Source: a virus
Direction: 5' to 3' (one strand)
IMG/VR virus record: IMGVR_UViG_3300028841_000078
Length of the DNA stretch: 64,000 nt
Position numbers and translations under genes: made by a program. Below the pieces are notes generated by a model. That model did no database searches. It was not told the DNA's origin and worked only from the letters and a program-made list of their open reading frames with translations. This document shows, one piece after another, positions 3,538-63,161 of the stretch. How positions within the stretch are numbered: the first letter of the stretch is position 1; each line of letters opens with the position of its first letter.

Positions 3538-4173
3538 TTATTTAGCAGCGAACCACATCAAAATGCCTTGCGCGTCAAAAGTTGCCGCCCATGTGCCGTT
3601 TACCGTGGTCACGGCAGCGCCCTGATCGATGAGCGCGATCAGGGGGCGGGTCGCGTCCGTGCCGGGGCTGCGATCTACGATAGCGATATAGCGGGCGGTG
3701 ATGTTGCTCGATGTCCACGAAGGGTCATTGGCATCCAGCACAGTCACACCCTTACCCGCGCACTCCCATGTCACGCCTGAGTCGGTCACCTCGCCGCCAA
3801 TGGTGGTCGGCCAAGTGGGTTCAACCGATGCGTGCGAGGTGCCTGCGGTCTTGACTCGATACAAATACCCGTTGCCTGTGGTGGGTCGCACCACATAGTC
3901 AGCGGCATAAGCAGTATTAGCGACCCATGTCGTCGCCCATGAGTTCGCCGGGGTATAGGTGATGGTGCAGCCGGTCAGCAATTGCCCGTTGGTCGTGTAG
4001 CCATTGCCGTTAGCAACCTCGTTGGCGGAGATATCGTTCCAGTAATCATCCGTGTCGAGGTTGGGGGTGTAGCTTGTGGTCAACAAGGCTGCGTAGATTG
4101 TGTCGCTATTCCAGTCGATTTCTTTATTCCAAACTTGTGATTGAACCTTTCGATATTGAGTTGCTGTTGCCAT
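3538..4173 (-). CDS. virion protein with inserted carbohydrate-binding-like module
   Basis: 'WVANTAYAADYVVRPTTGNGYLYRVKTAGTS...EPTWPTTIG...DSGVTWEC' is a CBM5/12-like insert common in tail proteins. Confidence 0.6.
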   Translation of the reverse strand: MATATQYRKVQSQVWNKEIDWNSDTIYAALLTTSYTPNLDTDDYWNDISANEVANGNGYTTNGQLLTGCTITYTPANSWATTWVANTAYAADYVVRPTTGNGYLYRVKTAGTSHASVEPTWPTTIGGEVTDSGVTWECAGKGVTVLDANDPSWTSSNITARYIAIVDRSPGTDATRPLIALIDQGAAVTTVNGTWAATFDAQGILMWFAAK

Positions 4174-29020: not shown

Positions 29021-29060
29021 ATCTGTCACATCGATGTGACAGCAATTCTGATTGACCCTA

Positions 29061-29089
29061 TTGACATTTGTTACAAATGTCGCTAATGT
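29061..29089 (+). promoter_or_regulatory. sigma70 promoter of the Y-RNA array, overlapped by inverted repeat GACATTTG-tta-CAAATGTC
   Basis: TTGACA-N17-TAATGT; inverted repeat at 29063-29081. Confidence 0.7.
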
Positions 29090-29100
29090 ATCGCGGGGGT

Positions 29101-29168
29101 AACGCAGTGGTGTAGACGGTGGTTACTTCACATCTACAAAAGGCCCATCGTCGTCCGTTCCCTGTGTT
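29101..29168 (+). ncRNA. Y-RNA-like unit 1 (minimal)
   Basis: Terminal stem AACGCAG/CTGTGTT; conserved TGGTGTA...GTTCC internal loop; helix GACGGTG/CATCGTC; GTTACTTC. Confidence 0.7.
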
Positions 29169-29180
29169 CGTTCGTCTGTG

Positions 29181-29245
29181 AATTGGTGGTGTAGATTGCG
29201 GTTACTTCTTTGGTTGAAAGCCCGCAGTCGCCTAGTTCCCCAATT
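29181..29245 (+). ncRNA. Y-RNA-like unit 2 (minimal)
   Basis: AATTGG/CCAATT; TGGTGTA...GTTCC; GATTGCG/CGCAGTC; GTTACTTC. Confidence 0.7.
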
Positions 29246-29257
29246 GCTTTGTCTCTG

Positions 29258-29347
29258 ACTGGTGGTGAATAAATCGAGTTCTTCGACTCATTATCGGGCT
29301 GGCGAGCAGTGCTCGTTGGCGTGACGCGATTTAGAACGTTCCCCAGT
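29258..29347 (+). ncRNA. Y-RNA-like unit 3 (anticodon-arm-like CAU hairpin)
   Basis: ACTGG/CCAGT; TGGTGAA...GTTCC; TAAATCG/CGATTTA; TTCGA-CTCATTA-TCGGG hairpin. Confidence 0.7.
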
Positions 29348-29358
29348 GTCTGGTTCGT

Positions 29359-29496
29359 AAATCGGTGGTGTATAAGGCGAGTTCTTCCTATGTTAAAGGG
29401 CTGGTCGGAGGTTCAAGTCCTTCCCCGTCCATTCGTGGACGGGTAGCTCAGGTGGTTAGAGCAGCTTGTAACGCGCTTTAGAATGTTCCCCGATTT
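29359..29496 (+). ncRNA. yrlA: YrlA-like Y RNA with circularly permuted tRNA domain
   Basis: AAATCGG/CCGATTT; T arm GGAGG-TTCAAGT-CCTTC; acceptor CCCGTCCA-TTCG-TGGACGGG; D arm GCTC-AGGTGGTTA-GAGC; next to TROVE gene. Confidence 0.85.
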
Positions 29497-29510
29497 TGTT
29501 TCGTGCAATT

Positions 29511-29545
29511 GGGCAGCAGGTATACCTGCTGCCCTTTTTGTTTTT
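29511..29545 (+). terminator. intrinsic terminator between the Y-RNA array and the Ro60 gene
   Basis: GGGCAGCAGG-TATA-CCTGCTGCCC followed by TTTTTGTTTTT. Confidence 0.85.
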
Positions 29546-29561
29546 CACACACACATAAATC

Positions 29562-30941
29562 ATGAAAAAGCCAATCGATCAGCTTGCCGGTGGGTTCGGG
29601 GCAGTAGCGGCCATCCAAACCCCAGAACAAACGCTTCGCCGCTTAGTGATGGCATCGCTCCTATGGGAGAAGTTGGCCTATGAATCGGGCGAATACAACG
29701 CCCTTGCCATCAAAGAGGCCATCTCGAAAGTGCCCGCGCCACAGGTGGCGGCAATTGCGATTGAGGCCCGCGAAAAGCAGCACCTGCGCCACACCCCGCT
29801 CTTCATCGCCGCCCAGATGTGCAAGTTGCCGACGCATCGCCCGTTTGTGGGCGGTGTGCTTGAGAAGATCTGCACTCGCCCCGACATGTTGGGCGACTTT
29901 ATGGCGCTGTATCAGATGGACAACAAAGACGCGCCCATCGCCAAGCAGGTCAAGACCGGCCTAGCCAAAGCCTTTGTCAAGTTCAGCGAGTATCAGCTTC
30001 GCAAATACGCCTCGCGTCAGGGCCAAGTCACCCTGCGTGATGTGATGTTTTTGGTGCATCCCAATCCGATTGAGAAGTGGCAGGTTGAGGCATTCAAGCA
30101 ACTGGCAAACAAAGAACTACCCCCCGCTGAAACGTGGGAGGTCATGCTGAGTTCAGGGGCAGACAAGTGCCGCACGTTCACTCAGTTGGTGCAAGGCGAC
30201 AAGCTGGGCGGCATGGCGCTATTACGCAACCTGCGCGGCATGAAAGAGGCCGGGGTGGATAAGCGCGTGATTCTGGGCGGGCTTGAACGCATGAAAACGG
30301 GCTACCTCTTGCCGATGAACTTTCTCTCCGCCGCCAAGAACGCGCCGGACTTTAGCGGTGCAATCGAACAGGCCATGTATCGCTGCTATGGCACCCAAGA
30401 GAAGCTGCCCGGAACGACCGTGTTCGCGGTGGACCGGTCGGGCAGCATGAATCAGCGCATCAGCGCACGGTCGGAGAATCAGCGCCTCGATGTGGCAATT
30501 GCGATGGCGATTCTGGCGCGGGAACGCTGCGAGAACCCGATCATCTACGCCACGGCAGGTCATGCCGGTCACGCCACAGTCCGGGTTCATCAGCGCGGCT
30601 TCGGATTGGCTGAGGAAATCAAGAACGCGCCCATCGGTGGCGGCGGTATCTATACCCGCCAGTGCCTTGAGTTCATTAGAAAGGACTTGGGCGACACCCA
30701 TGTTGACCGAGTGATCGTGTTCAGTGACAGCCAAGATTGCGACACCAGCCACAAGCTGCCCGCGCCGTTTGGCACCACGAATTACATCGTGGATGTATCG
30801 GCTCACAGCAAGGGCATCAATTACGGCCAGCTTTGGACCGCCGAAATCAGCGGCTGGTCTGATCACTTTCTCGACTACATTTTTGCGCTGGAAGGCATCA
30901 ACACAGTTGTCGATGACACGGGTGACGAAATCGAAGGCTAG
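29562..30941 (+). CDS. rsr: Ro60/Rsr-family TROVE domain RNA-binding protein with vWA domain
   Basis: LRHTPLF, VKTGLAKAFVKFSEYQLRKY, TLRDVMFLVHP, TWEVMLS, LGGMALLRNLR, MIDAS-like DRSGSM, VIVFSDSQ. Confidence 0.9.
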   Translation: MKKPIDQLAGGFGAVAAIQTPEQTLRRLVMASLLWEKLAYESGEYNALAIKEAISKVPAPQVAAIAIEAREKQHLRHTPLFIAAQMCKLPTHRPFVGGVLEKICTRPDMLGDFMALYQMDNKDAPIAKQVKTGLAKAFVKFSEYQLRKYASRQGQVTLRDVMFLVHPNPIEKWQVEAFKQLANKELPPAETWEVMLSSGADKCRTFTQLVQGDKLGGMALLRNLRGMKEAGVDKRVILGGLERMKTGYLLPMNFLSAAKNAPDFSGAIEQAMYRCYGTQEKLPGTTVFAVDRSGSMNQRISARSENQRLDVAIAMAILARERCENPIIYATAGHAGHATVRVHQRGFGLAEEIKNAPIGGGGIYTRQCLEFIRKDLGDTHVDRVIVFSDSQDCDTSHKLPAPFGTTNYIVDVSAHSKGINYGQLWTAEISGWSDHFLDYIFALEGINTVVDDTGDEIEG

Positions 30942-32706: not shown

Positions 32707-34491
32707 ATGGCGGCAATCGTCGTTGGTGAGGAGCATCTATTCTCTCAAAAGGCCAAGGGGCTGGTGCGGCTGAACAAACACCGCAGCGACACCCTGCCCG
32801 TTGCCTTTATCCCCGGCGGGTCGCACCGTCCGGTGATTTACGGAGAGATGGAGAAGTTCTTCACCCAACACAAGCATCCTGTTTTGTTTGTGCGGCCCTG
32901 CCCTGAATCGCCCAATCACGGCGGCGAGGTGGCGGGCTTTCAGTCTGAGGCTGTCAAGCGCGAGGCATCCATTCAGCAGGTCTGGAAGGTTCGCCAAGCA
33001 ATTGCCAAGAAGAATCTGCGGGCCGACATTGTGGTGATGCCCTATGTCCACGCCGATCTGTCCTGCGTGGTCGCACCGGGCAAATACTACGTGTGGGGAC
33101 TGGGCAACAACGGAGTCACCGCCGGGACAAGCGAGACGGTGGTGATTCCGATCAACCCCAAGAACCCCGGCCATTACTTTCTGTCCGCCGCCGGGTATGA
33201 CCCCAAGACCGTCGAGGTTGAGTTTGTGCGCGACAAGGCCAATCGAAAGGTCTACTGTGTCCAGATTCGTGCCGCCTCCGCCCACTTGGACATCGACCCC
33301 GCGCCCGAAGGAGCGTTGCCGGGGTTTGTCCCCGGCGGCAAGATGACGGTCGTCAAAACTTATCAAGTGAAAGACCTGAATGATCTTGGCGAACTGGAGT
33401 TTTTGAAGGGAACCGACACCGCAGGGCTATTAGTCATTCAGCCCACCGGCTCAATGCTCAGTCACGCGGCAGCGCACTGTCGCGGAGCCAAGATCGCATT
33501 TTGCATCGGGAAACCGGACATCAAGCCCGGAAGTGTCGTGGCCGAACCCGCGTCCGGTTGGCTGGTGGTCGGGGATGTCGAGGCCAAGCCGTATGACCCG
33601 GCCACCTACTGGGCGGACTTTCGGCGCGGCTTTGATGCGCCCCTCATCTGGGAGAGCATGAAACTAGGCACGTTCTTTCATCAGTGGGCCACCAAGCCCC
33701 TAGGCAGTCCAAATCGAGTCGCCTATCTGGGCGGTCGCTTTTGCAAATGGCTGGTGCAAGCGGGCATCACCGCCTTTTGTGGCGAGTCGCGTCACACCGA
33801 TTGTGTCCACAACAAAGGCGACTGGGGCGGGTATCAGATTCACCACCACTATGTCAACATGACCGGAGAACATGAACCACAACGCGCCACGATCTTAAAG
33901 ATGCTGCGCGACAGTCACGCGACCCTGCCCGATCTGTTGAAAGTCGCCCAATGGACCCACCAGATGTTTAGTCTCAGTTGGATGCACTCAATGGGTGGCT
34001 ACAAGTGGCAGATGTGCGCGGCATCGGCCATCAACTCGATTGAGGCGATTATGAAAGGCGACTGCAGCGCGGCCATCACCGCCCTCAACGCGCTTGAGAA
34101 CGGCGTTCACAACGGCGGGAAGCTGTTCAACAAGTTTCATGAGTCGCTGAAGTGGCTGGATATCGCCACAGCCGGGGTCAGCATGGACACAGGCGAAACC
34201 GGGCTTTCATCCGAGATCGCAGAGGTGGCCTTGCTCACCAAGTTCAACGACACCCCGGTAAAAGAATCTTCTATCCAATGGGCGACGACAGCGGCCTTGG
34301 CCGATATCGTCATCCCCAAGATGGGCAATCCTAAAGCGGTGCAGCCATCGGTTACATCGTCGGCGACGTTTACCGACAACGACTTCGCCCAGAAGTTCAA
34401 CGCAGGCGCGATGGCGGCGATGAACAAATCTCAACCAGAGGTTCCACCTAAAAAATCAGCAATGGTCATTCGACCAAAAAAGGGAATATGA
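32707..34491 (+). CDS. PEP-synthase/RPH-type dikinase: ATP-grasp, His-swivel domain, unknown C-domain
   Basis: KAKGLVRL..LPV, LFVRP, GLGNNGVTAG, VEVEF..VYCVQIRA (PPDK_N-like); GSMLSHAAAHCR phospho-His motif. Confidence 0.75.
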   Translation: MAAIVVGEEHLFSQKAKGLVRLNKHRSDTLPVAFIPGGSHRPVIYGEMEKFFTQHKHPVLFVRPCPESPNHGGEVAGFQSEAVKREASIQQVWKVRQAIAKKNLRADIVVMPYVHADLSCVVAPGKYYVWGLGNNGVTAGTSETVVIPINPKNPGHYFLSAAGYDPKTVEVEFVRDKANRKVYCVQIRAASAHLDIDPAPEGALPGFVPGGKMTVVKTYQVKDLNDLGELEFLKGTDTAGLLVIQPTGSMLSHAAAHCRGAKIAFCIGKPDIKPGSVVAEPASGWLVVGDVEAKPYDPATYWADFRRGFDAPLIWESMKLGTFFHQWATKPLGSPNRVAYLGGRFCKWLVQAGITAFCGESRHTDCVHNKGDWGGYQIHHHYVNMTGEHEPQRATILKMLRDSHATLPDLLKVAQWTHQMFSLSWMHSMGGYKWQMCAASAINSIEAIMKGDCSAAITALNALENGVHNGGKLFNKFHESLKWLDIATAGVSMDTGETGLSSEIAEVALLTKFNDTPVKESSIQWATTAALADIVIPKMGNPKAVQPSVTSSATFTDNDFAQKFNAGAMAAMNKSQPEVPPKKSAMVIRPKKGI

Positions 34492-35021
34492 ACACACAAC
34501 CAACCAAAATCGAAAATCAGAACTCCGCTCCAATCTTCACAATGAAGTGGTGGCGTGGCATCTTTATCACCAATGTCACCTGTGGCGGTCGTCAACCCAT
34601 GACGGACTTTGAACATCGAACCGATAAGCCCGATCTGGTCATCGGTGCAGCGGGGCTTGCCAAAGAGACGTACGCCTTTGGGGGCGGGTTTGACTTCATC
34701 AATCGCACCGCCAGACGCGCCGTGTATATCAACTGGCAAGACTTCGGGGTGCCCGACATGGACAAGTCATGGTGGGAGAACCTTTACGAATCCATCGAGC
34801 AGATCAAGCCCCGCCACATTCATGTGCAGTGCATGGGCGGGATGGGCAGGACGGGCACGATCTTGACGATTCTGCTCATCTTGTCGCGCCGGGATAAGAA
34901 GGACGCATTCAAGACGGTGGGCAGCGCGATTCAGTACATCCGGGCGCATGGCAATCCTCATGCGGTCGAAACCCCGGCCCAACGCCAGTACATCGCCGAC
35001 ATGACAGGAACCCAACTATGA
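34488..35021 (+). CDS. CX5R protein-tyrosine/dual-specificity-type phosphatase 1
   Basis: WQDFGVP acid loop; HVQCMGGMGRTGT; AVETPAQ. Confidence 0.85.
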   Translation: MNTQPTKIENQNSAPIFTMKWWRGIFITNVTCGGRQPMTDFEHRTDKPDLVIGAAGLAKETYAFGGGFDFINRTARRAVYINWQDFGVPDMDKSWWENLYESIEQIKPRHIHVQCMGGMGRTGTILTILLILSRRDKKDAFKTVGSAIQYIRAHGNPHAVETPAQRQYIADMTGTQL

Positions 35022-36028
35022 GCAGCCTTGTCAACGGCGATGATGCCGATGACTTCTTTTTTGGCAACGCCACAGGCGACCATGAGAAGTCAGAACCCAC
35101 ATCCACGCCCCTGCCCTTATTTACAGGGCACAAACACGACTCAGGGGTGAACTCAGCCTACACCTTAAGCTGGAGCGGCGGCAACAAAACCAAAGTGACC
35201 GGCGGCGGCAAGATGTATGCGGGGGACTTTAAGCACGACAAGACGATTGACTTTCTCATCTCGGCGGTCGCGCTTGAACCCCAAGCCCACTATGCCATCG
35301 GCGCAGATCTATCCTGCGCCGATGGCATTAGCGGCGTTCGCCATGCCGTGCTGCTCGATTGGCCGGACATGCAGGTGCCAAAAGTGCCGCTGAATTTTTG
35401 GGTCAATCTGATCAAAGACCTATCCACGATTCGGCCACAACACTTACATGTGCAGTGCGCGGGCGGCAACGGGCGCACCGGGACCACCTTAGCCATTCTG
35501 TTGCAGCTTGCAACCGGCGGCTACCCCTCCGTCGAGGTGTTGGTCAAGTCGCTTCGCGCAGGGTACCGTCAGGCGGCGGTCGAAACCAAATCCCAGTTTG
35601 ATTACATTGCTTACGTCTGCAACATCCCGGTCGGCGATGTGAAAGACATGATTCGGAAAGACCCGGTTGTGGTGAGTACGGCCACAAAGAAGCCGGTCAA
35701 AACCCCGCCGCTGGAAGGGCTTAAGAAGTCGGGCACAACCACGACCATTCAACTCTCGCCTGAGAAAGAGAAGATTCGCAAATCGAAATACTTTCTACAG
35801 TTCGATGCCGACTTCACGAGCAATCTACCGATTGACCTAGCGGTGGCTTACTACGAAATCTGGGAGAGCATCGGTAAGCCCATTCTGATCAAGAAGGGCA
35901 ACGTGCCCTATGCCGCCAAGGTGCCCACTGACCGGGTATATCCAGAACACATCCACCTTTACAAGCTGAGTGAGGACAAGCAGTTTTACCTGTCCGTGGC
36001 CCTCGCTCATGTGAACGAGAAGAAATGA
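35018..36028 (+). CDS. CX5R phosphatase 2 with C-terminal extension
   Basis: WPDMQVP; HVQCAGGNGRTGT; AVETKSQ. Confidence 0.85.
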   Translation: MSSLVNGDDADDFFFGNATGDHEKSEPTSTPLPLFTGHKHDSGVNSAYTLSWSGGNKTKVTGGGKMYAGDFKHDKTIDFLISAVALEPQAHYAIGADLSCADGISGVRHAVLLDWPDMQVPKVPLNFWVNLIKDLSTIRPQHLHVQCAGGNGRTGTTLAILLQLATGGYPSVEVLVKSLRAGYRQAAVETKSQFDYIAYVCNIPVGDVKDMIRKDPVVVSTATKKPVKTPPLEGLKKSGTTTTIQLSPEKEKIRKSKYFLQFDADFTSNLPIDLAVAYYEIWESIGKPILIKKGNVPYAAKVPTDRVYPEHIHLYKLSEDKQFYLSVALAHVNEKK

Positions 36029-45694: not shown

Positions 45695-46056
45695 GCTTTC
45701 TTGAACGCAATCAGATGAGCGAACCGCTGCACAAGGCGATGCGAATGATGTGGAATAGCCCGCTGTCCGGCCCAATGTATGCCGTGATTGATTTGATGTG
45801 GCAAGACAACATCAGATTCGAGAATGGCAATGCGGAGTGGGGCAGTTGGTTGGACCAAGTTCATCGCGTCACCAAAGATTGCAAGACGTATCAAGAGGCA
45901 GCACTGTGCGCCAAGCGCAATAAGTTCCGGGTTAATTTAGGGAGTCACTGCAGCATCATCTTGTTTGGTCTGACTGACCTAATGACCCTTGATGATTGGG
46001 AGACTCTACTGTGCTATTGCCAAATGCACCAAGAACAGATTAGCCATGAATCTTGA
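45691..46056 (+). CDS. hypothetical protein
   Basis: ATGA-coupled. Confidence 0.55.
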   Translation: MSFLERNQMSEPLHKAMRMMWNSPLSGPMYAVIDLMWQDNIRFENGNAEWGSWLDQVHRVTKDCKTYQEAALCAKRNKFRVNLGSHCSIILFGLTDLMTLDDWETLLCYCQMHQEQISHES

Positions 46057-47107
46057 CACCAAACTTCCGCCGATCTTCAACGCCTCCACCGCCGACACCG
46101 CGCTGCTGAAGCTAGTTCAAAAGCGTCAAGCCGAGGGGGTCCACCCGCTGCGCTGGCATATCCCTTACTTTGACAACACCGCCTTCCCCTTGTTCCCCAC
46201 ATGGTCGTATCTGATCTGTGGGCGACCGGGCAGCATGAAGTCCACGCTCCTAGCCTATCTGGTCAAGATGTGGGGCAAGGACTTAGCCGTTGAGAACGAG
46301 GGGCGCGACCTGAAGCGAGTCGGCATCATCTATCGGCCTGAAGAAACCGTTGAACAGGCCCGTCATGCCACATGGGAATACAAGGCCACTAGTTACGTCG
46401 ATATCTTGAACGGCAAGCCCAAGATTGAGGACATGAAGAAGATCATCGCCATGCAAAAGCAGCCGCCGATTCTGTATATGGGTCAGACGGAGGTGAAAGA
46501 ACTCGCCCCCACTGCCCGGATTAACCGGGGGCGGGTGTCCACGCGAGATCTGTGGCGGGCGTGTGAGGCGGTCAAAAAGGGGCAGTTCTTTGAGAAAACA
46601 GAGATTGCGTTCTTAGCCGTGGACGGAATGCACCTGCTTGACGACGAATCTCACGAACGAAAGAAGGTCGAGCGCATGGCAAACGTGCCGACTGAACTGA
46701 ACGCCATCGGCTTTGACTTTGACTGCAGCATCATCGTCACCACCCAAGCCACCCAAAAAGGCACCAAAGATCAGAAAGATTCGATTCCGCGCATGGAGGA
46801 CATCGCGTGGAACTCGACCGCATCCCAAGACTTTTATGCCTTTCTAGGGGTGGAGCGGTTGGTTAAAAAGCCCAATATCACGATGGCAAAGATGAATGCA
46901 CTGGGTCTTTGGGAGGGAGACTTTGTAAAGGTGCAGGACGAACAAAACAAAAAATACGAGGTGCCCATCACGATCAATCTGATGACCGCGATGTTCGACA
47001 AGTTTCGCGGCACCCGTAACTGTGAATCAAGGCGCTTTGCGATGTGGGCGGAGGAGGATGGCGACATCACCCAAAAGCATCTGCCCGCATTTCAGAAAGG
47101 ACTTTAG
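46046..47107 (+). CDS. DnaB/RecA-fold replicative helicase
   Basis: Walker A GRPGSMKST, Walker B LAVDGMHLL, IIVTTQ, DKFRG arginine finger. Confidence 0.8.
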   Translation: MNLDTKLPPIFNASTADTALLKLVQKRQAEGVHPLRWHIPYFDNTAFPLFPTWSYLICGRPGSMKSTLLAYLVKMWGKDLAVENEGRDLKRVGIIYRPEETVEQARHATWEYKATSYVDILNGKPKIEDMKKIIAMQKQPPILYMGQTEVKELAPTARINRGRVSTRDLWRACEAVKKGQFFEKTEIAFLAVDGMHLLDDESHERKKVERMANVPTELNAIGFDFDCSIIVTTQATQKGTKDQKDSIPRMEDIAWNSTASQDFYAFLGVERLVKKPNITMAKMNALGLWEGDFVKVQDEQNKKYEVPITINLMTAMFDKFRGTRNCESRRFAMWAEEDGDITQKHLPAFQKGL

Positions 47108-57265: not shown

Positions 57266-58311
57266 AATATCCAGCGGGGCTTGATGCCGATCACGGCACG
57301 GCCCTCGACTTCCAACCGGTTAATACCGGGGGCAATGCGGGGGAAACGACTGGTTTGGGAGGGCTTGGGGGTGCACTGAGAATACACGGATTGTTTGTCT
57401 AAATCAATCGTGTCTTTGTTATTCAGTGTCACCGTCTGCACAAAGTAATGCTCATTGATGATACGAACCGTGGTGTTGTCTTGCTCGGCCCGGATATACC
57501 CGGTCGCCTCAAAGGTTCCGGGGACGTTGACCCCTAAACTCGCCTTCCCCATCAATCGATAGTTGATACTGCCCCACAGACATTCCGCGTCATAAAAACA
57601 AAAACACCCCTGCGCAATACAGGCGAGTGGGTCTTTGTGATACCAGCGCTGGCTGTCCCCACAATCGGGCAGTGATCTTGGTTTACGGGTGTTGCCCGCT
57701 GATATTAACTGCTCCATTTCGTCAATTGTTCGCGCTTGACGGACCGGCGGCGGTGAACCAAAACGCCACTCCGATTTAGTCATGTAGGTAAACGGCGCGG
57801 CCAGCGTGAATTTGACTTCAACCGCATCAAAGCCTTTCAGAATGTCATCGATCTGATTTTTGATATGCGGCTCCTCGATCTTGGCATACGTCCACATCCA
57901 CTCACCAGAAGACTGTGCCGGGAGATAACCATCACAGTTCTCACAGTCACCCGCCGCGTCGTCTTGCACATAGACCACCAGCGGCCTCCAGATACCTGCT
58001 TGCGCCATAATGCCCGATAACTCACTTTGAGCCAAACACGATGAAAGCTGGTTGTTCTGGTAGGTATTGGCATACTTCCCCGACCACGACATCTCGCCGG
58101 TCGAGATGGGGCTGCGAATAATCCCTTGAGAACTGTCAATCACCCCATCCACCAAAAAGGCGCTTTCGGATTTGGTGTCTCGATACTTCCAAGAGATATC
58201 CCCGGAATACTGGACACGCGGCAATAGAAACTTGCCGAACTGATACGCAATGACGCTGCGCCCCATCCGGCCTACCTTTCTGAACTGTTGGGTTGGACTG
58301 AGTTTGATCAT
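57262..58311 (-). CDS. distal tail protein (Dit-like)
   Basis: Follows the tape measure gene; C-terminal 'FPRIAPGINRLEV...PRW'. Confidence 0.7.
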   Translation of the reverse strand: MIKLSPTQQFRKVGRMGRSVIAYQFGKFLLPRVQYSGDISWKYRDTKSESAFLVDGVIDSSQGIIRSPISTGEMSWSGKYANTYQNNQLSSCLAQSELSGIMAQAGIWRPLVVYVQDDAAGDCENCDGYLPAQSSGEWMWTYAKIEEPHIKNQIDDILKGFDAVEVKFTLAAPFTYMTKSEWRFGSPPPVRQARTIDEMEQLISAGNTRKPRSLPDCGDSQRWYHKDPLACIAQGCFCFYDAECLWGSINYRLMGKASLGVNVPGTFEATGYIRAEQDNTTVRIINEHYFVQTVTLNNKDTIDLDKQSVYSQCTPKPSQTSRFPRIAPGINRLEVEGRAVIGIKPRWIL

Positions 58312-61300
58312 TAAATTCTCCCCGTTGCGCGGGCACGTCGCCGCGCCATCGCCTCACTCACCCCGGCGCGGGCACCCCGCTGCGCGGCCCGTTGCACGGC
58401 TTGTGGATTGGTGGCTCCCCGCGCATCGATCTGGAAGGTCTGACGGTTGTCGTAGCTGTGGCTGACCACCGAGGTTGCCCCATCCAAGAAGCGCCCCCCG
58501 CTGATCGAGTTTAGGCGGCTTGAGTTGGCCGCGTTGACAAAGATACCGCTTGAGTCTGACACAAAGTATTCCGGTCCAAGTTCCCCCACCATCGCCAACT
58601 GTCCAGCCTGATACATCCCACCCGCCGCAAATTGCTGCACCGGCCCCCGGCTTCCCGGCCTCCGTGTTGAACGAGGAACGGGGTCTGCGGGGCGATAGGG
58701 GCGATTCCCACTACTACCCCCCGCCCCGGTCACAATCGACGCTGAGAGGGCCTCTGCGGTGATTTTGGTGGCACTATTGATGATCGCCTGCGTGGTCGAT
58801 TGCAGGGCTTTGAAGCGCAACAAATTCTCTTGGCGTTGTTTCTCCGCCAGACTGTCGGCGGTCGATTGGGCGGTCAGCGAACTCATCGACTGAATCCCGC
58901 CCATCCCCACGGCAAACTTTCTGCCGGTGGCCGGGTCGTAGTATTGCGATGACGCGGCCTGCCGCGCCGATTTCGCCGACAGGCGTAGATCATCGATCTG
59001 CTTGTTCAGTGTGTCGATGGCCCCTTCGGTCCGGTAAATTGCCGGGGCATCGCGCTGCTGAATCAGAGCATCCATCTTGGCCTTCTCCGCCAGATACACC
59101 CCCGCCGCACTGTTGGGAGTTTGGTTGGCAATTTCGCGCAGCTTCTTATCGCTGAGTTGTGGACCGATGTCCGGGTGAATGAAGGCGATATCGCTGCCCT
59201 GATTGCGCTTGACCCACTTCGCCAGTTCGCTGGCCGGATAGATATTCGCCAAATCCTCAACCTGTTTGACGGTCGTCGGAGGCGGAATAAAGTCATACGG
59301 CCCGCGTGAGTCTACGGCATAACCAAGCGCATAAAGCTGCTTGAGGATGTCTTTGGTGGTGCCGCCCTGCACGATCAGGCCATCATTGTCAGGCACGAAC
59401 ATTTCCGGCAGACCGCCATCGCCCACGACCACGGCCTGACCGCGCTTGACGCGACCACCCCGCGCCCGCTCGTCCGGCGGCTTACCCCCAATCCCCTTAC
59501 TCTTGCCTTTGTTGCCGGTGCCGCCTCCCCCTGTGCCAGAGCCGGTGCCTGACCCTGTTCCGCTGCCAGTACCGCTGCCGGTGCCACCGACCCCTCCAGA
59601 CCCATCCCCGGTCGCGGTCGTATCGGTGACCACGGTGATCGGCACATACACCGTGCGGCCCTTGATGCTGCCGACAATGCTATCGAGCGAGGCATTGATT
59701 GGCCCGCTGATGTTGTCGGTGACCTTGCCTAAACTCATCGTGACCGGCGGCTGTGGCTCAAGTGGCTTCTCGGCATCCTTCTTGATGCCCTCCCGCGCAT
59801 CGGTGATCGACTTATCAATCGCTGCCGTATCTACACCGGCAGCGGTCAGCGTTGACTTCACCGGAATCTCTAAGCCCTTATCAACGTCGATGCCTTGGCT
59901 GGCCAGCAATTGCTGCACGATCTGACCAGACCCGGCGTTGGCGATTTTATTTTTAGCATCAATCGCCAGCATCAGTTTTTTGTCGTCGGCCTCGGTGCCT
60001 TGATTGACCTTGCCGCCCTTGCCCTTTTTGCCGAACTGATTGGCCTCTTTGGTGAGTTGATCAACCTGACCGGCCAGATCTGCCTCAAAGTTGGTGACCA
60101 ACTTGAACTTCACCGCCTGTTCAATCGTCAGCGGTGCCGCCCCGGTAATCTGAGGGGCTAGGCCCTTGATGCCATCTTGCAGGTTCTTGAGCTTGGTCAG
60201 ATATTCCTCGTAGCTGACCTTGCCTGAAGCCAAGTCATTATCCAGCGCCTGCAAGCCAAGTCCAAGTGTGTAAGTTGTGGTCTTTGCTTTTCCAGTCGCT
60301 CCCAAGTAATTCTCTAGTTGCTTAGTGGTCTCGGCCAACCCCGGCGCGACTCCATCCTTGCTAGTTTCTGCCAAATTCTGAAGCGCGGTTTCAAAGCCGC
60401 CCACCGCCCGGTCTTGAAATGAGTTATCCAAGAACTGATTGAACGCCTCAATCTTGGCTTGTGCCTCGTCAAGATCGCGCTGTTCGGTTTTAGATAGGCC
60501 ACGCCGACGAGTGCCACGAACCACTGTCGGGGTGGCCGGGGTGCCATCTGGGTTGACAATCGGGGTGCCATCATCGTTGTAAGCAGCGGCAACAGTTGAC
60601 GCATTGGGCTTCTCGGCATTAAACACATTGAGGTTGCGTTGTGCGCTGACTAAATTGGCCTCTGCGTTGCCAATCGTGTTTGGGTTGGGTTTCTTGGCAT
60701 TTCGAGCGTTGTTGAGACTTCGCTCTGCGTTTTCAACCGCCTTGACTTTATCTTTGTACTGATCGGCCAACTTCATTGACTTAATCGTTGACTCATTTTC
60801 AACCCGCTTGCCATTCACCACGGTATAGCTATATGCCACCTGTGCGTCTTTGAGCTTGCCCAACTTCTCAACCGTCTTAAATGCGTCCCCGGTGCCTTTG
60901 AATGCGTCATCGAAACTAGCCGAGGTCTTAAGGACGTTATCAACCTGTCCGGTCACGTTTTGAATGATGAACTTATTGCGAGCCTCTAACTCTTTGGGTT
61001 CAAGCGGCTGACCATAGACTGAGGCATCCGGAGGCGGTGCTTGTCCGGGCACCTGTTGGGTTTCATATTGCTCGCGAACTTTGCTTGACCCGCCGGGAAG
61101 CACGGCTCCAAAATTGCCGGTCTGTTGGGCTTTGAGTTGTGAAATGTAGCTGGTCAAATTCTCAACATCGGCCTTCCCGTAAAAATCCAATCCGCCTAAA
61201 AAGCCTTCATTTTTCATTCGGGTTTGGGCTTTAACGAGCTCGGCTTGTGCGGCCTCGATCTGTTTGCCAATGTCTTGCGAGGGAATTTCTTTCGGACTGA

Positions 61301-63161
61301 TCAAGCCAAAGCCGGTCGAGGTCAGTGGCGAACCGCCGACGGTTGGGTTGATGCCCAGTGCGCGAAGGATGCCATACCCTTGAAAGAGTTGACCTGCCGC
61401 CCCCGGAAGAAACTGGCCAAAGGGAGATAGCGCGTCGATAAAGTTGGTTGCATTATTGGCTTTGCGAGTTTGCTGCGTGAGTCTCCCCTTGCCGACATCT
61501 CCAATATCGCCGCCAAGATCATTGTTGATTCTCAGCAGCATTGCCTCAATTGCGTTGCCAACCTCTTGCGTTGCCGGGGCAAACTTATCACCAAGCGTGA
61601 TTTGAATGCCATCAAAGGCCGATTGAATTCGGGCGGCTTGCTGCTCCATCGTGGAACCCATGATGACCGCCGCCTGCATGGTATTCCCTTGGCTCTGGGT
61701 AATGCGTCCTAGGATTTCGTCGTAGGTGTCAAACTCACCCCGCGCCAATGACAGCACGCCGGTATAGGCCCGAATGTTGCCAAAGATTTGACTAAGCACC
61801 GTCTCGCGGTTGCCGGTGGCCGTGGCGCGTAGATCGATATCTTTTAGCACCTCGCCCAACCCCTCGGACTTGAGGCGCTTGGCGATGTCCCCCGGCGTAA
61901 TCCCCAACTCTTTCAGCGCCTTAATCGCCTCTTTTGATGGGTCAATCAAGTTGGAGATCGTCTGCTTGAGTTGTGTAACCGCTTGTGGAGCGGTCGAGCC
62001 TGTTCGGGTGATTGTGGCGATGGCCGCGCCCACCTCCTCGATGCGAACCCCCGCCGCCGCCGCAATGGGCAGCACCAAGCCAAGCGACTTCGCCAACTGT
62101 TCCGGTTCGGCTTTGCCCTCGCGCACCGTGGCGGTAAAGACATCGGTGTATTTAATGGCGCTTGATGCTTGTTCACCGTAGGCCTGCAATGAGCTTGTCA
62201 GCAGGTCCGCAAAGTTCTTGGTGGACCCTAGACCGGCTTGGTTGGCTAGAGACGAGGCCGACAAGACCTGTTGAGCGCCCCGACCGCTGAAACCGGATGA
62301 CGAAATAAAGTAAGCCGCCTGCGCCAGATCTTCCTGAGACTGACCGGTGCCAAGCGAAAGCTGCCGACCCTGTTGTTGCAATCCCCGCGCCTCAGTCGGC
62401 GATGCGCCGGTCAGGGCACGAAGCAGCGCAATCGGGGTTTGCACCCCCTGATACTTCTGAACCGATTCGCGGCCAAAGTTGATCGCCGCTCCGCCCGCCG
62501 TGACGAGCGCCCCCACCCCGGCAGCGGCGGGAACCCCTAGCGACCCACCCAACAACTGAACGATGTTACCGACGCTCGATAGGGTCTTACCACCGGGCAG
62601 GTTTAGAGTGTTAAGTAGGCTTGACGCACCGTAAAACTTTTGCGCGGCGACATAGGCGCTGAACTCTTTATAGGCTTGGCTCTCTTGCTTGGCCTGTTCG
62701 CGGGCGATGCGTTGCTGATCTTGGAACGCTTGACGCGAGGCCAAAATCTGCTGCTGATAGCCGAACTTTTGCGCGGCAAGTTGTTGGTTGTTGTTGGCAT
62801 AGGTGTTCGCCAGCAAAATCGAGGCGGCTGATTTCTGACCGGCCAACTGCTGCGCGGCCCCGGCCTTTTGGCTGGCTAGTTGTTGGGCGAGGGCAGACTT
62901 TGACGCGGCAAGCGACAGTGCATCATTGGCTTTCTGCGATTGAATCTGTTGGGCTTGCTGAAAGTTTTGCTGACTAAGCGCGGCCTTGCCCTGCTGTTGC
63001 AACTGAGCAAGTTGCACCTTGTATTGCTGCAGAATCTGTTGAGCAGGGCTGGCCCCGCCCGTTCCACCCGCCGCTCCACCCAAACTAGCAAGTTGCGCCT
63101 TAATCGCCCCTAGTGCCGCCGGGTCAAGTTGCAAGCCTACCGTTAAAACAATCGTGGACAT
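58311..63161 (-). CDS. tape measure protein (TP901 family)
   Basis: 1616 aa, Ala/Gln-rich helical; DLAQAAYFISSSG...TATVREGKAEP; RARGG/FAAGG...VGELGPE motifs. Confidence 0.92.
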   Translation of the reverse strand: MSTIVLTVGLQLDPAALGAIKAQLASLGGAAGGTGGASPAQQILQQYKVQLAQLQQQGKAALSQQNFQQAQQIQSQKANDALSLAASKSALAQQLASQKAGAAQQLAGQKSAASILLANTYANNNQQLAAQKFGYQQQILASRQAFQDQQRIAREQAKQESQAYKEFSAYVAAQKFYGASSLLNTLNLPGGKTLSSVGNIVQLLGGSLGVPAAAGVGALVTAGGAAINFGRESVQKYQGVQTPIALLRALTGASPTEARGLQQQGRQLSLGTGQSQEDLAQAAYFISSSGFSGRGAQQVLSASSLANQAGLGSTKNFADLLTSSLQAYGEQASSAIKYTDVFTATVREGKAEPEQLAKSLGLVLPIAAAAGVRIEEVGAAIATITRTGSTAPQAVTQLKQTISNLIDPSKEAIKALKELGITPGDIAKRLKSEGLGEVLKDIDLRATATGNRETVLSQIFGNIRAYTGVLSLARGEFDTYDEILGRITQSQGNTMQAAVIMGSTMEQQAARIQSAFDGIQITLGDKFAPATQEVGNAIEAMLLRINNDLGGDIGDVGKGRLTQQTRKANNATNFIDALSPFGQFLPGAAGQLFQGYGILRALGINPTVGGSPLTSTGFGLISPKEIPSQDIGKQIEAAQAELVKAQTRMKNEGFLGGLDFYGKADVENLTSYISQLKAQQTGNFGAVLPGGSSKVREQYETQQVPGQAPPPDASVYGQPLEPKELEARNKFIIQNVTGQVDNVLKTSASFDDAFKGTGDAFKTVEKLGKLKDAQVAYSYTVVNGKRVENESTIKSMKLADQYKDKVKAVENAERSLNNARNAKKPNPNTIGNAEANLVSAQRNLNVFNAEKPNASTVAAAYNDDGTPIVNPDGTPATPTVVRGTRRRGLSKTEQRDLDEAQAKIEAFNQFLDNSFQDRAVGGFETALQNLAETSKDGVAPGLAETTKQLENYLGATGKAKTTTYTLGLGLQALDNDLASGKVSYEEYLTKLKNLQDGIKGLAPQITGAAPLTIEQAVKFKLVTNFEADLAGQVDQLTKEANQFGKKGKGGKVNQGTEADDKKLMLAIDAKNKIANAGSGQIVQQLLASQGIDVDKGLEIPVKSTLTAAGVDTAAIDKSITDAREGIKKDAEKPLEPQPPVTMSLGKVTDNISGPINASLDSIVGSIKGRTVYVPITVVTDTTATGDGSGGVGGTGSGTGSGTGSGTGSGTGGGGTGNKGKSKGIGGKPPDERARGGRVKRGQAVVVGDGGLPEMFVPDNDGLIVQGGTTKDILKQLYALGYAVDSRGPYDFIPPPTTVKQVEDLANIYPASELAKWVKRNQGSDIAFIHPDIGPQLSDKKLREIANQTPNSAAGVYLAEKAKMDALIQQRDAPAIYRTEGAIDTLNKQIDDLRLSAKSARQAASSQYYDPATGRKFAVGMGGIQSMSSLTAQSTADSLAEKQRQENLLRFKALQSTTQAIINSATKITAEALSASIVTGAGGSSGNRPYRPADPVPRSTRRPGSRGPVQQFAAGGMYQAGQLAMVGELGPEYFVSDSSGIFVNAANSSRLNSISGGRFLDGATSVVSHSYDNRQTFQIDARGATNPQAVQRAAQRGARAGVSEAMARRRARATGRI

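What the first reader, a model, noticed from the sequence alone, without database searches (positions are those of the whole stretch)
29281..29401. Y-RNA units display different anticodon-like loops: possible decoy panel against anticodon nucleases
Seen: after the shared CUUC, unit 3 has TTCGA-CTCATTA-TCGGG (5 bp, 7-nt loop, U33, CAU) and unit 4 has TCCT-ATGTTAA-AGGG (4 bp, GUU, A37 A38). Both continue GGGCTGG. Unit 2 has a weaker TTC-TTTGGTT-GAA loop, and unit 1 contains CTACAAA without a good stem. Known: several anti-phage and toxin RNases cut specific anticodon loops (VapC family on tRNA-fMet, colicin E5 on QUN tRNAs including Asn, PrrC on Lys). Inference: Ro-protected, non-chargeable anticodon mimics could sponge such nucleases or RtcR-type tRNA-fragment sensors, with array diversity tracking host defences.
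Basis: inference. Interest (0 to 1): 0.75.

Follow-up and report, generated by a model that had tools for sequence, protein, structure and literature searches.

The report
Anticodon-arm mimics in phage Y RNAs
A phage Ro60 gene is preceded by four Y RNAs, two of which carry a small hairpin that comparison with about 50 relatives shows to be a conserved copy of a tRNA anticodon arm, so these RNAs mimic a whole tRNA; that they act as decoys for anticodon-cutting nucleases is possible but untested.

Summary
The hairpins are at the stated places: unit 3 stem 29282-86/29294-98 with loop CUCAUUA, and unit 4 stem 29386-89/29397-400 with loop AUGUUAA. Thermodynamics alone does not favour them. About 50 related Y RNAs beside Ro60 genes in phage and MAG contigs support them.

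- **Stem and loop:** the stem covaries. The loop is 7 nt, with U33 in 26/27, R37 in 25/27 and A38 in 24/27.
- **Composite stem:** three local pairs plus two covarying pairs, made by the strand after the D arm, give a 5-bp anticodon stem in exact tRNA numbering.
- **Likeness to real tRNAs:** 6 of 19 distinct loops match real tRNA loops from the same loci letter for letter. G37 occurs only after G36. ARAGORN calls six relatives tRNAs through this hairpin.

These YrlA-type RNAs are therefore complete tRNA mimics, with the Ro-binding stem entering between nt 28 and 29. The hairpin equals the 'V' stem-loop of Chen et al. 2014, re-read as an anticodon arm. Units 1 and 2 are YrlB-type and have no convincing mimic.

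The decoy idea is untested. Positions 34-36 change fastest and differ between array units, but they are invariant among strain variants and biased to GUU. A related competitive-inhibitor idea is already published.

The parts
29061..29089 (+). Promoter-like site for the array: TTGACA 29061-29066, a 17-nt spacer holding an inverted repeat (GACATTT / AAATGTC), then TAATGT 29084-29089
   Evidence: Read directly. TTGACA, 17 nt and TAnnGT stand at the same place in L001 and L003. The consensus scanner did not call it, so this is inferred.
29099..29169 (+). Unit 1: short YrlB-type Y RNA (Ro-binding stem plus a pyrimidine/A-rich apical loop), with no anticodon-like hairpin
   Evidence: R1 28.5 bits and R2 37.1 bits; fold
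29178..29247 (+). Unit 2: short YrlB-type Y RNA with apical UUC-UUUGGUU-GAA
   Evidence: R1 27.7 bits; fold; the same apical sequence in L003 unit 2
29254..29350 (+). Unit 3: truncated YrlA-type Y RNA. It keeps the Ro stem and the anticodon-like hairpin, but the T arm, acceptor stem and D arm are replaced by a 10-bp hairpin (29298-29320).
   Evidence: R1 39.9 bits; alignment; its counterpart L003 unit 3 has the full tRNA-like body; strain variants 29317 T>C and 29302 G>A keep the 10-bp hairpin paired
29282..29298 (+). Unit 3 anticodon-like hairpin: core pairs 29284-86 with 29294-96, loop CUCAUUA 29287-29293
   Evidence: It is homologous by alignment to the family hairpin. It differs by one letter (U for A at 37) from CUCAUAA, the loop of five real tRNA-Met genes in related loci.
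29357..29497 (+). Unit 4: full YrlA-type Y RNA, a complete tRNA mimic
   Evidence: R1 161 bits and R2 129.7 bits; partial RF02553 match of 39.4 bits at 29400-29465
29386..29401 (+). Unit 4 anticodon-like arm. In tRNA numbering 29-31 = 29387-89, loop 32-38 = 29390-96 (AUGUUAA), 39-43 = 29397-29401. Nucleotides 42-43 pair with 28-27 at 29465-29464.
   Evidence: all five pairs of the composite stem are present
29402..29465 (+). Unit 4 tRNA body: variable loop UGGUC 29402-06; T arm 29407-23; 7-bp acceptor-like stem closed by AUUCGU 29424-43; U8 A9 29444-45; D arm 29446-62; nt 26-28 29463-65
   Evidence: (T, acceptor-like and D helices 98-100% paired with covariation)
29511..29544 (+). Intrinsic terminator after the array (10-bp G+C-rich stem followed by a T tract)
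   Evidence: conserved in L001 and L003
29562..30941 (+). Ro60 (TROVE + vWA) gene
   Evidence: Pfam PF05731 E 1e-14; 2917 homologues

Best explanation
The region is a single promoter-to-terminator array of four Y RNAs in front of a phage Ro60 gene: two short YrlB-type units, one truncated YrlA-type unit and one full YrlA-type unit.

In unit 4 and its relatives, every part of a tRNA is present in exact tRNA register: a 7-nt loop (U33, purine 37, A38), a 5-bp anticodon stem, a 5-nt variable loop, a T arm, a 7-bp acceptor stem closed by a loop, U8 A9, a D arm and nt 26.

The anticodon stem is composite. Pairs 29-41, 30-40 and 31-39 are local. Pairs 27-43 and 28-42 use the strand that follows the D arm. 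The Ro-binding helix therefore enters the tRNA between nt 28 and 29, forming a three-way junction.

Inferred: the arm is inherited from a tRNA (tandem-tRNA) ancestor. It is kept because a tRNA-binding partner of the Ro60-Y RNA particle reads it, which could be a modification enzyme, a nuclease or another factor. The triplet is the least constrained part, so paralogous units come to display different tRNA-like loops (CAU-like and GUU here).

Shown: sequence, covariation and likeness to tRNA. Not shown: expression, Ro binding, the stacking of the two half-stems, and the partner.
For: - **Context:** Ro60 lies 65 nt downstream on the same strand. The window is a phage (tape measure and DnaB-like helicase).
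- **Hairpin covariation:** the alignment was not fitted to the hairpin.
- **Pairs 27-43 and 28-42:** both covary strongly (A-U 19, G-C 17, C-G 6; and G-C 23, C-G 10, U-A 8).
- **tRNA register:** with a fixed 5-nt variable loop and one nt 26, 23 of 48 distinct RNAs have all five stem pairs. Other registers give 0-6.
- **26/44 pairing:** combinations follow tRNA habit, such as G26 with A44 and A26 with U44 or G44.
- **Loop composition:** U33 26/27, R37 25/27 and A38 24/27. In 31 real tRNAs of the same loci the figures are U33 31/31, A37 24 and A38 24.
- **Identical loops:** 6 of 19 distinct loops equal real tRNA loops (Asn, Lys, Ser, Gly, Pro). Column shuffles give a mean of 1.7, p about 0.0003. 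G37 occurs only with G36, 5/5 against 0/14.
- **Independent tools:** ARAGORN calls six relatives tRNAs with this hairpin as the anticodon arm. Tandem tRNA genes match model R1, with their anticodon loop in the hairpin columns.
- **Unit 3:** it keeps the hairpin although it lost the tRNA body.
Against: - Single-sequence folding of the window's units prefers other pairings.
- In unit 4 the loop letters GUUA can pair with a 3' UAAC to give a continuous stem like that of Salmonella YrlA.
- The window's loops depart from typical tRNA loops: A32 in unit 4 and U37 in unit 3.
- About 40% of related YrlA-type units lack a clean 7-nt hairpin.
- Coaxial stacking of the 3-bp and 2-bp parts is inferred from contiguity and base-pair count only.
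- The G36-G37 and loop-identity tests are not corrected for shared ancestry.
- Chen et al. 2014 drew this stem-loop as a variable arm.
Confidence: 0.6

Rival explanations
1. One reading: the units are Ro-protected, non-chargeable anticodon mimics. They soak up or inhibit host anticodon nucleases (or tRNA-fragment sensors), and array diversity tracks host defences.
For: - The anticodon mimicry itself.
- Positions 34-36 are the fastest-changing sites, 0.42-0.58 differences per site against 0.14-0.28 elsewhere at 70-90% identity.
- Units of one array show different triplets, for example AUG, CCU and UGA in L082, and CAU and GUU here.
- Arrays often sit among phage tRNA genes, and phage tRNAs are known to counter anticodon nucleases (PMC10264068, PMC11555353).
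- Ro/Y RNA genes sit in RtcB repair operons that are induced by anticodon-loop cleavage, and Hughes et al. proposed YrlA as a competitive inhibitor of that nuclease (PMC7790460).
Against: - No nuclease, target or phenotype is known.
- Fast change at 34-36 is equally what relaxed constraint gives.
- The triplets are biased to GUU and GCU rather than diverse.
- No loop change appears among strain variants, while 24 other sites in the array vary.
- The hairpin also occurs on MAG contigs, including a cyanobacterial one (L124).
- A cleavable decoy is a weak answer to a catalytic nuclease unless it binds without being cut.
Confidence: 0.15
2. The hairpin is only the 'V' (variable-region) stem-loop of YrlA described in 2014. 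It would be a structural spacer or evolutionary relic at the junction, with no reading of its loop. Its likeness to anticodon loops would be leftover ancestry.
For: - Chen et al. [quoted passage not shown] Loops such as CUAUGGA and CUACGGA fit this.
- Salmonella YrlA works without it (bioRxiv 10.1101/312249).
- Many relatives lack it.
- It is thermodynamically marginal.
Against: - **Topology:** the two nucleotides after the hairpin pair with the strand after the D arm (covariation). That places the hairpin at 29-41, not between 44 and 48.
- A relic would not keep U33, R37 and A38 at about 90% across RNAs that are under 60-70% identical.
- A relic would not hold whole-loop identity to several different tRNAs or the G36-G37 link.
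Confidence: 0.15
3. In this particular phage the hairpins do not form. Unit 4 would have a continuous kinked anticodon-like stem as in Salmonella YrlA, and unit 3 a GAGUU-CUUC-GACUC hairpin. The reader's hairpins would then be chance alternatives.
For: These are the RNAfold MFE structures. Hairpin pair probabilities are 0.03-0.10.
Against: The alternative pairings are not kept in the closest relatives. L003 unit 4 has GCUA against UAAC, and L001 has a different 3' strand. The hairpin is kept with compensating changes: CCU/AGG, CCA/UGG and UCA/UGA.
Confidence: 0.1

Closest known systems
YrlA of Salmonella Typhimurium (Rfam RF02553; crystal structure 6CU1; Chen et al. 2014, Wang et al. 2018)
   Same: It is encoded beside Ro60/Rsr. 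It has a Ro-binding stem plus a permuted tRNA-like module: T arm, closed acceptor-like stem, then D arm. Unit 4 matches model positions 24-84.
   Different: Salmonella YrlA has a continuous kinked stem and, in its authors' words, lacks the anticodon loop. The window's RNA scores 39 bits against a 69-bit cut-off, has a different 5' scaffold (GGUGGUGUA...GUUCUUC), and carries a 7-nt anticodon-like hairpin at a three-way junction.
'V' stem-loop of many YrlA RNAs (Chen et al. 2014, PMC4201824)
   Same: It is the same element: a less conserved stem-loop just upstream of the T arm, often starting with YUAY.
   Different: It was drawn as a variable arm. Here covariation places it at tRNA positions 29-41, and its loop statistics are those of anticodon loops.
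Mycobacterium smegmatis YrlA
   Same: It has a 7-bp acceptor-like stem, as here (29424-30 with 29437-43), and several Y RNAs are made from one precursor upstream of Ro.
   Different: The M. smegmatis RNA is cut by RNase P and receives CCA. Whether this happens here is unknown.
Deinococcus radiodurans Yrn1
   Same: Chen et al. model a possible anticodon arm with a 5-bp stem.
   Different: In Yrn1 the loop is 6 nt, the arm lies between the T and D arms, and the lineage is separate.
Phage-encoded tRNAs that evade anticodon nucleases (PMC10264068, PMC11555353)
   Same: These are phage RNAs whose anticodon loops matter in conflicts with tRNA-cutting defences. Such tRNA genes are interleaved with Y RNA arrays in related loci.
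   Different: Those are chargeable replacement tRNAs. The Y RNAs have a closed acceptor end and a Ro-binding stem.
Tandem or permuted tRNA genes (dimeric-tRNA origin model cited in bioRxiv 10.1101/312249)
   Same: The order of parts matches: anticodon arm, variable loop, T arm and acceptor 3' strand, then acceptor 5' strand and D arm. Real tandem tRNAs score 35-42 bits with model R1.
   Different: The Y RNAs have the conserved Ro scaffold and a closed acceptor stem.

Membership tests
YrlA-type bacterial/phage Y RNA | Encoded close to a Ro60/Rsr gene on the same strand | tested here: met
   The array at 29099-29497 ends 65 nt before the TROVE ORF at 29562-30941. The layout is the same in L001 and L003.
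YrlA-type bacterial/phage Y RNA | tRNA-like module with a T arm, a closed acceptor-like stem and a D arm, in that order | tested here: met
   Met by unit 4: RF02553 positions 24-84, E 3.7e-7, and helices 98-100% paired with covariation. Units 1-3 lack it.
YrlA-type bacterial/phage Y RNA | Reaches the Rfam RF02553 gathering score (69 bits) | tested here: not met
   There is no match at gathering in the window, and the best is 39.4 bits. Related phage loci also fail. The Rfam consensus has no hairpin here.
YrlA-type bacterial/phage Y RNA | GNCGAAN0-1G motif near the 5' end (proposed Ro contact) | tested here: inconclusive
   Unit 4 has GGCGAGUU and unit 3 has AUCGAGUU. Most relatives have GGUGGUGUAGA...GUUACUUC instead.
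YrlA-type bacterial/phage Y RNA | Bound and stabilised by Ro60 | not testable with these tools
   No RNA run holds the region.
YrlB-type Y RNA (units 1 and 2) | Long hairpin with the Ro scaffold and a small pyrimidine-rich loop, and no tRNA-like body | tested here: met
   Folds; scaffold matches to R1 and R2; description in PMC4201824
tRNA anticodon stem-loop (as a structural mimic, not as a tRNA) | 7-nt loop with U33 and purine 37 | tested here: met
   Unit 4 AUGUUAA meets both. Unit 3 CUCAUUA has U33 but U37. Family figures are U33 26/27 and R37 25/27.
tRNA anticodon stem-loop (as a structural mimic, not as a tRNA) | 5-bp stem in register with nt 26, the variable loop and the T arm | tested here: met
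   A composite stem is present in unit 4 and in 23 of 48 relatives, against 0-6 in other registers.
tRNA gene | Called by a tRNA finder; open acceptor end able to carry CCA | tested here: not met
   ARAGORN finds none in the window. The tRNA model scores 14 bits. The acceptor stem is closed by a loop. Six relatives are (mis)called tRNAs.
Anti-defence decoy or inhibitor of anticodon nucleases | A cognate nuclease that binds or cuts the loop, and a defence phenotype | not testable with these tools
   No host and no nuclease are known, and none is encoded nearby.
Anti-defence decoy or inhibitor of anticodon nucleases | Loop hypervariable on a fixed scaffold among relatives | tested here: inconclusive
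   Positions 34-36 change 2-3 times faster than other sites at 70-90% identity. They are biased to GUU and unchanged among strain variants.

The most novel reading that the evidence does not exclude
Phage (and some bacterial) Ro60 particles carry arrays of complete tRNA mimics whose anticodon loops copy particular host tRNAs (Asn, Met, Lys, Ser, Pro, Gly and others). Held by Ro60 and unable to be charged, they would bind tRNA-targeting defence nucleases or sensors as inhibitors or baits. This would be an RNA-based, modular counter-defence whose specificity is written in three loop letters.
Probability: 0.15. Interest if true: 0.85.

Novelty: new variant of a known kind. Interest (0 to 1): 0.6.

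Why it matters
Bacterial Y RNAs are described as mimicking the tRNA elbow (D arm, T arm and acceptor stem) but lacking an anticodon loop, and their partner is unknown. A widespread subfamily with a full anticodon arm in exact tRNA register, and loops equal to those of specific tRNAs, narrows the search. It points to proteins that read anticodon loops, such as modification enzymes, anticodon nucleases and repair factors. It also turns the published 'competitive inhibitor' idea into a concrete experiment, with predicted specificities (GUU and CAU here). Finally, it gives sequence-level support to the tandem-tRNA origin of Y RNAs.

Tried and rejected
- **Rfam at gathering threshold:** nothing in the window or in 10 related phage loci, apart from real tRNAs.
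- **blastn of the locus against 50,697 phage records:** no match.
- **Single-protein scan of viral contigs:** nothing. The alignment-based scan worked.
- **Whole genome:** none is held.
- **Exact-pattern scan of metagenome contigs for the 5' scaffold:** 13 loci, none with a Y RNA by model R1, so these are chance matches. The same pattern found nothing in viral contigs.
- **RF02553 in four genomes and 14 controls:** none over the cut-off.
- **R1 over 121 genomes of one class:** five hits, most of them tandem tRNA genes.
- **RNA evidence:** no RNA holder is listed. The 'RNA-Seq' wastewater runs are probably DNA and are kept as contigs, so nothing can be said on expression, ends or processing.
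- **Naive lowest-energy hairpin search:** it picks inconsistent registers, so it was replaced by register-based counts.
- **Continuous-stem model (loop GUUA with 3' UAAC):** rejected as not conserved.
- **Variable-arm reading:** rejected on topology.
- **Loop-loop kissing between units 3 and 4 (CAU with AUG):** only 3 bp, not pursued.
- **Recent copying of whole arms from neighbouring tRNA genes:** stems stay CGA/UCG or CGC/GCG whatever the loop, and the one pair compared by eye (L072 Y RNA against its tRNA-Asn) has different T arms. Not supported.
- **Two reviews (PMC10870794, PMC6047535):** not held.

Full report
**What is in the window.** The window is a phage contig. It has a tape-measure protein at 58311-63161 and a DnaB-like helicase at 45989-47107. 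No whole genome is held for it. The ORF at 29562-30941 is a Ro60 orthologue, with a TROVE domain at E 1e-14 and a weak vWA match. It has thousands of homologues.

The 470 nt before the ORF hold four tandem units on the same strand:
- unit 1 at 29099-29169
- unit 2 at 29178-29247
- unit 3 at 29254-29350
- unit 4 at 29357-29497

A conserved TTGACA-17-TAnnGT site stands in front of them. A strong terminator follows at 29511-29534.

All four units share a scaffold: an outer stem, then GG/CC, an internal loop, a 7-bp helix, and a GUU helix followed by CUUC. Units 1 and 2 are short hairpins, matching the YrlB type of Chen et al. 2014.

Unit 4 contains a permuted tRNA body. Rfam YrlA positions 24-84 match at 29400-29465 with 39.4 bits, below the 69-bit cut-off. 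Unit 3 has the same 5' part, but a plain 10-bp hairpin stands where the tRNA body should be. Its counterpart in the relative L003 still has the full body.

**The observation.**
- Unit 3: UUCGA 29282-86, loop CUCAUUA 29287-93, UCGGG 29294-98.
- Unit 4: UCCU 29386-89, loop AUGUUAA 29390-96, AGGG 29397-400.

On their own they are weak. RNAfold prefers other pairings. Unit 4 with the hairpin is -47.6 kcal/mol against -48.9 for the MFE, with pair probability about 0.10. Unit 3 is -31.3 against -33.6, about 0.03. The case therefore rests on comparison with relatives.

**Relatives.** Two close relatives were found, with Ro60 80% and 75% identical: L001 has three units and L003 has four. An alignment-based scan gave 80 Ro60 loci in IMG/VR and 40 in GTDB genomes, the latter all MAG contigs.

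I built covariance model R1 from the four full units, leaving the hairpin region unpaired. It found 56 units (52 distinct) at E <= 1e-5. A second model found 72. Arrays of two to five units are common.

**The hairpin is real.** In the R1 alignment, which is not fitted to the hairpin, the three core pairs are 73% paired. Pair types vary: A-U 18, C-G 9, U-A 4, G-U 2 and U-G 2 at the innermost pair. Slid controls give 23-43%, and no shuffle reached the observed percentage paired, doubly changed cells or covariation score.

Among the three close phages the stem changes in a compensating way: CCU/AGG, CCA/UGG and UCA/UGA. The rival pairing that RNAfold prefers for unit 4 (loop GUUA with 3' UAAC) is broken in L003 and absent in L001.

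**It sits where an anticodon arm sits.** The two nucleotides right after the hairpin pair with the two nucleotides that follow the D arm plus one spacer. Both pairs covary strongly: A-U 19, G-C 17, C-G 6; and G-C 23, C-G 10, U-A 8.

I then counted in strict tRNA numbering from the T stem (5-nt variable loop) and from the D stem (one nt 26). In this register 23 of 48 distinct RNAs have all five pairs 27-43, 28-42, 29-41, 30-40 and 31-39, with a 7-nt loop. Eight other registers give 0-6. The 26/44 combinations follow tRNA habit, for example G26 with A44 in AGGUC loops.

The anticodon stem is therefore composite. Two pairs come from the strand leaving the D arm and three are local. The Ro-binding helix joins between nt 28 and 29 through a conserved CUU linker and an A-rich linker.

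Chen et al. 2014 saw this element and called it V, a variable-arm equivalent. The covariation places it at 29-41 instead. The Salmonella RNA whose structure is solved lacks it and was described as lacking the anticodon loop. The Rfam consensus has no hairpin there either.

**The loop looks like a real anticodon loop.**
- In 27 same-register hairpins: U33 26/27, purine 37 25/27, A38 24/27 and pyrimidine 32 19/27.
- In 31 real tRNA genes from the same loci: U33 31/31, A37 24 and A38 24.
- Six of the 19 distinct Y RNA loops are identical to real tRNA loops in those loci: CUGUUAA, CUUUUAA, CUUGAAA, CUUCCAA, UUUGGGA and UUUGGGU. Column shuffles give 1.7 on average, p about 0.0003.
- G37 occurs only when position 36 is G, 5/5 against 0/14. 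This is the rule of m1G37-bearing tRNAs (established knowledge). The test is not corrected for shared ancestry.
- ARAGORN calls six of the Y RNAs tRNA-Ser, -Pro or -Lys, or an undetermined tRNA, using the hairpin as the anticodon arm.
- Real tandem tRNA genes match R1, with their anticodon loop in the hairpin columns. This fits the tandem-tRNA origin model quoted by Wang et al..

The window's own loops are near-canonical. AUGUUAA is the Asn loop with A32. CUCAUUA is the Met loop CUCAUAA with U37.

**The decoy idea.** Several points are in its favour:
- Positions 34-36 change fastest, at 0.42-0.58 differences per site against 0.14-0.28 for other sites in pairs of 70-90% identity.
- Units of one array show different triplets.
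- Arrays are often interleaved with phage tRNA genes, which are known to counter anticodon nucleases.
- Ro/Y RNA genes sit in RtcB repair operons that respond to anticodon-loop cleavage. Hughes et al. 2020 suggested that the YrlA tRNA-like domain may competitively inhibit that nuclease.

Several points count against it, or are neutral:
- Fast change is also what low constraint gives.
- The triplet is biased: GUU 9, GCU 4 and UUU 3 of 27.
- Contigs from wastewater, bioreactor and sludge runs show 24 variable sites across 29050-29560, and none in either loop.
- The hairpin also occurs on MAG contigs, including a cyanobacterial one (L124).
- No nuclease, RtcB or RtcR is nearby.
- There is no expression or binding evidence.

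I put the decoy reading at about 0.15.

**Verdict.** Its structural meaning is a full anticodon arm completing the tRNA mimic. This goes beyond what the papers I could read describe, so it is a new variant of a known kind. The functional claim remains a hypothesis with clear tests.

Noticed in passing
L082, L074, L072, L051, L120, L096, L103: Real tRNA genes (Met, Asn, Gly, Pro, Asp, Phe, Val, Thr and others) are interleaved with or adjoin Y RNA arrays next to Ro60 in many phage loci. The window itself has no tRNA gene.
   Followed up: partly
L082:1344-1418, L006:1824-1900, L124:1719-1794, L096:213-287, L089:19-87, L087:1736-1804: ARAGORN reports the 5' two-thirds of YrlA-type Y RNAs as tRNA genes (Ser, Pro, Lys, or undetermined). 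Rfam's tRNA model does the same at L074:347-414 (36.6 bits). Such calls in phage annotations may be Y RNAs.
   Followed up: partly
L146, L147, L148, L128: Model R1 scores tandem tRNA genes at 35-42 bits, through the T arm of one tRNA and the D arm of the next. This illustrates the tandem-tRNA origin idea, and warns that low-scoring hits without the Ro scaffold are not Y RNAs.
   Followed up: yes
window 29023-29042; L001 about 3561-3578: A perfect 20-bp palindrome (CTGTCACATC/GATGTGACAG) lies just upstream of the array promoter. Its 18-bp core recurs in L001 although the upstream gene differs; it is absent from L003. No T tract follows, so it may be a protein-binding site.
   Followed up: no
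window 29063-29081: An inverted repeat (GACATTT ... AAATGTC) fills the promoter spacer. L001 and L003 have a similar palindrome at the same place, which looks like an operator.
   Followed up: no
window 34488-35021 and 35018-36028: Two adjacent CX5R (protein-tyrosine/dual-specificity type) phosphatase genes lie downstream of Ro60 (Pfam PF00102, E 8.5e-10 and 6e-9). The gene order Ro60, three small ORFs, a protein of about 600 aa, then a phosphatase is kept in L001 and L003.
   Followed up: partly
window 29298-29320: The 10-bp hairpin that replaces the tRNA body in unit 3 keeps pairing in strain variants (29317 T>C turns G-U into G-C; 29302 G>A turns G-U into A-U). Unit 3 therefore seems to be under structural constraint and not a dead copy.
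   Followed up: partly
window 29050-29560: Near-identical and 90-95% similar copies of the array occur in bioreactor, wastewater and activated-sludge metagenomes from several studies.
   Followed up: partly
L060:1498-1572, L081:1091-1176, L008:1742-1818, L053:3372-3452: Some short (YrlB-type) units also end in a 3-4 bp hairpin with a tRNA-like 7-nt loop (CUGUUAA, CUUGAAA, UUGCGGA, ACUUGAA). The anticodon-like hairpin is therefore not tied to the presence of the tRNA body.
   Followed up: partly
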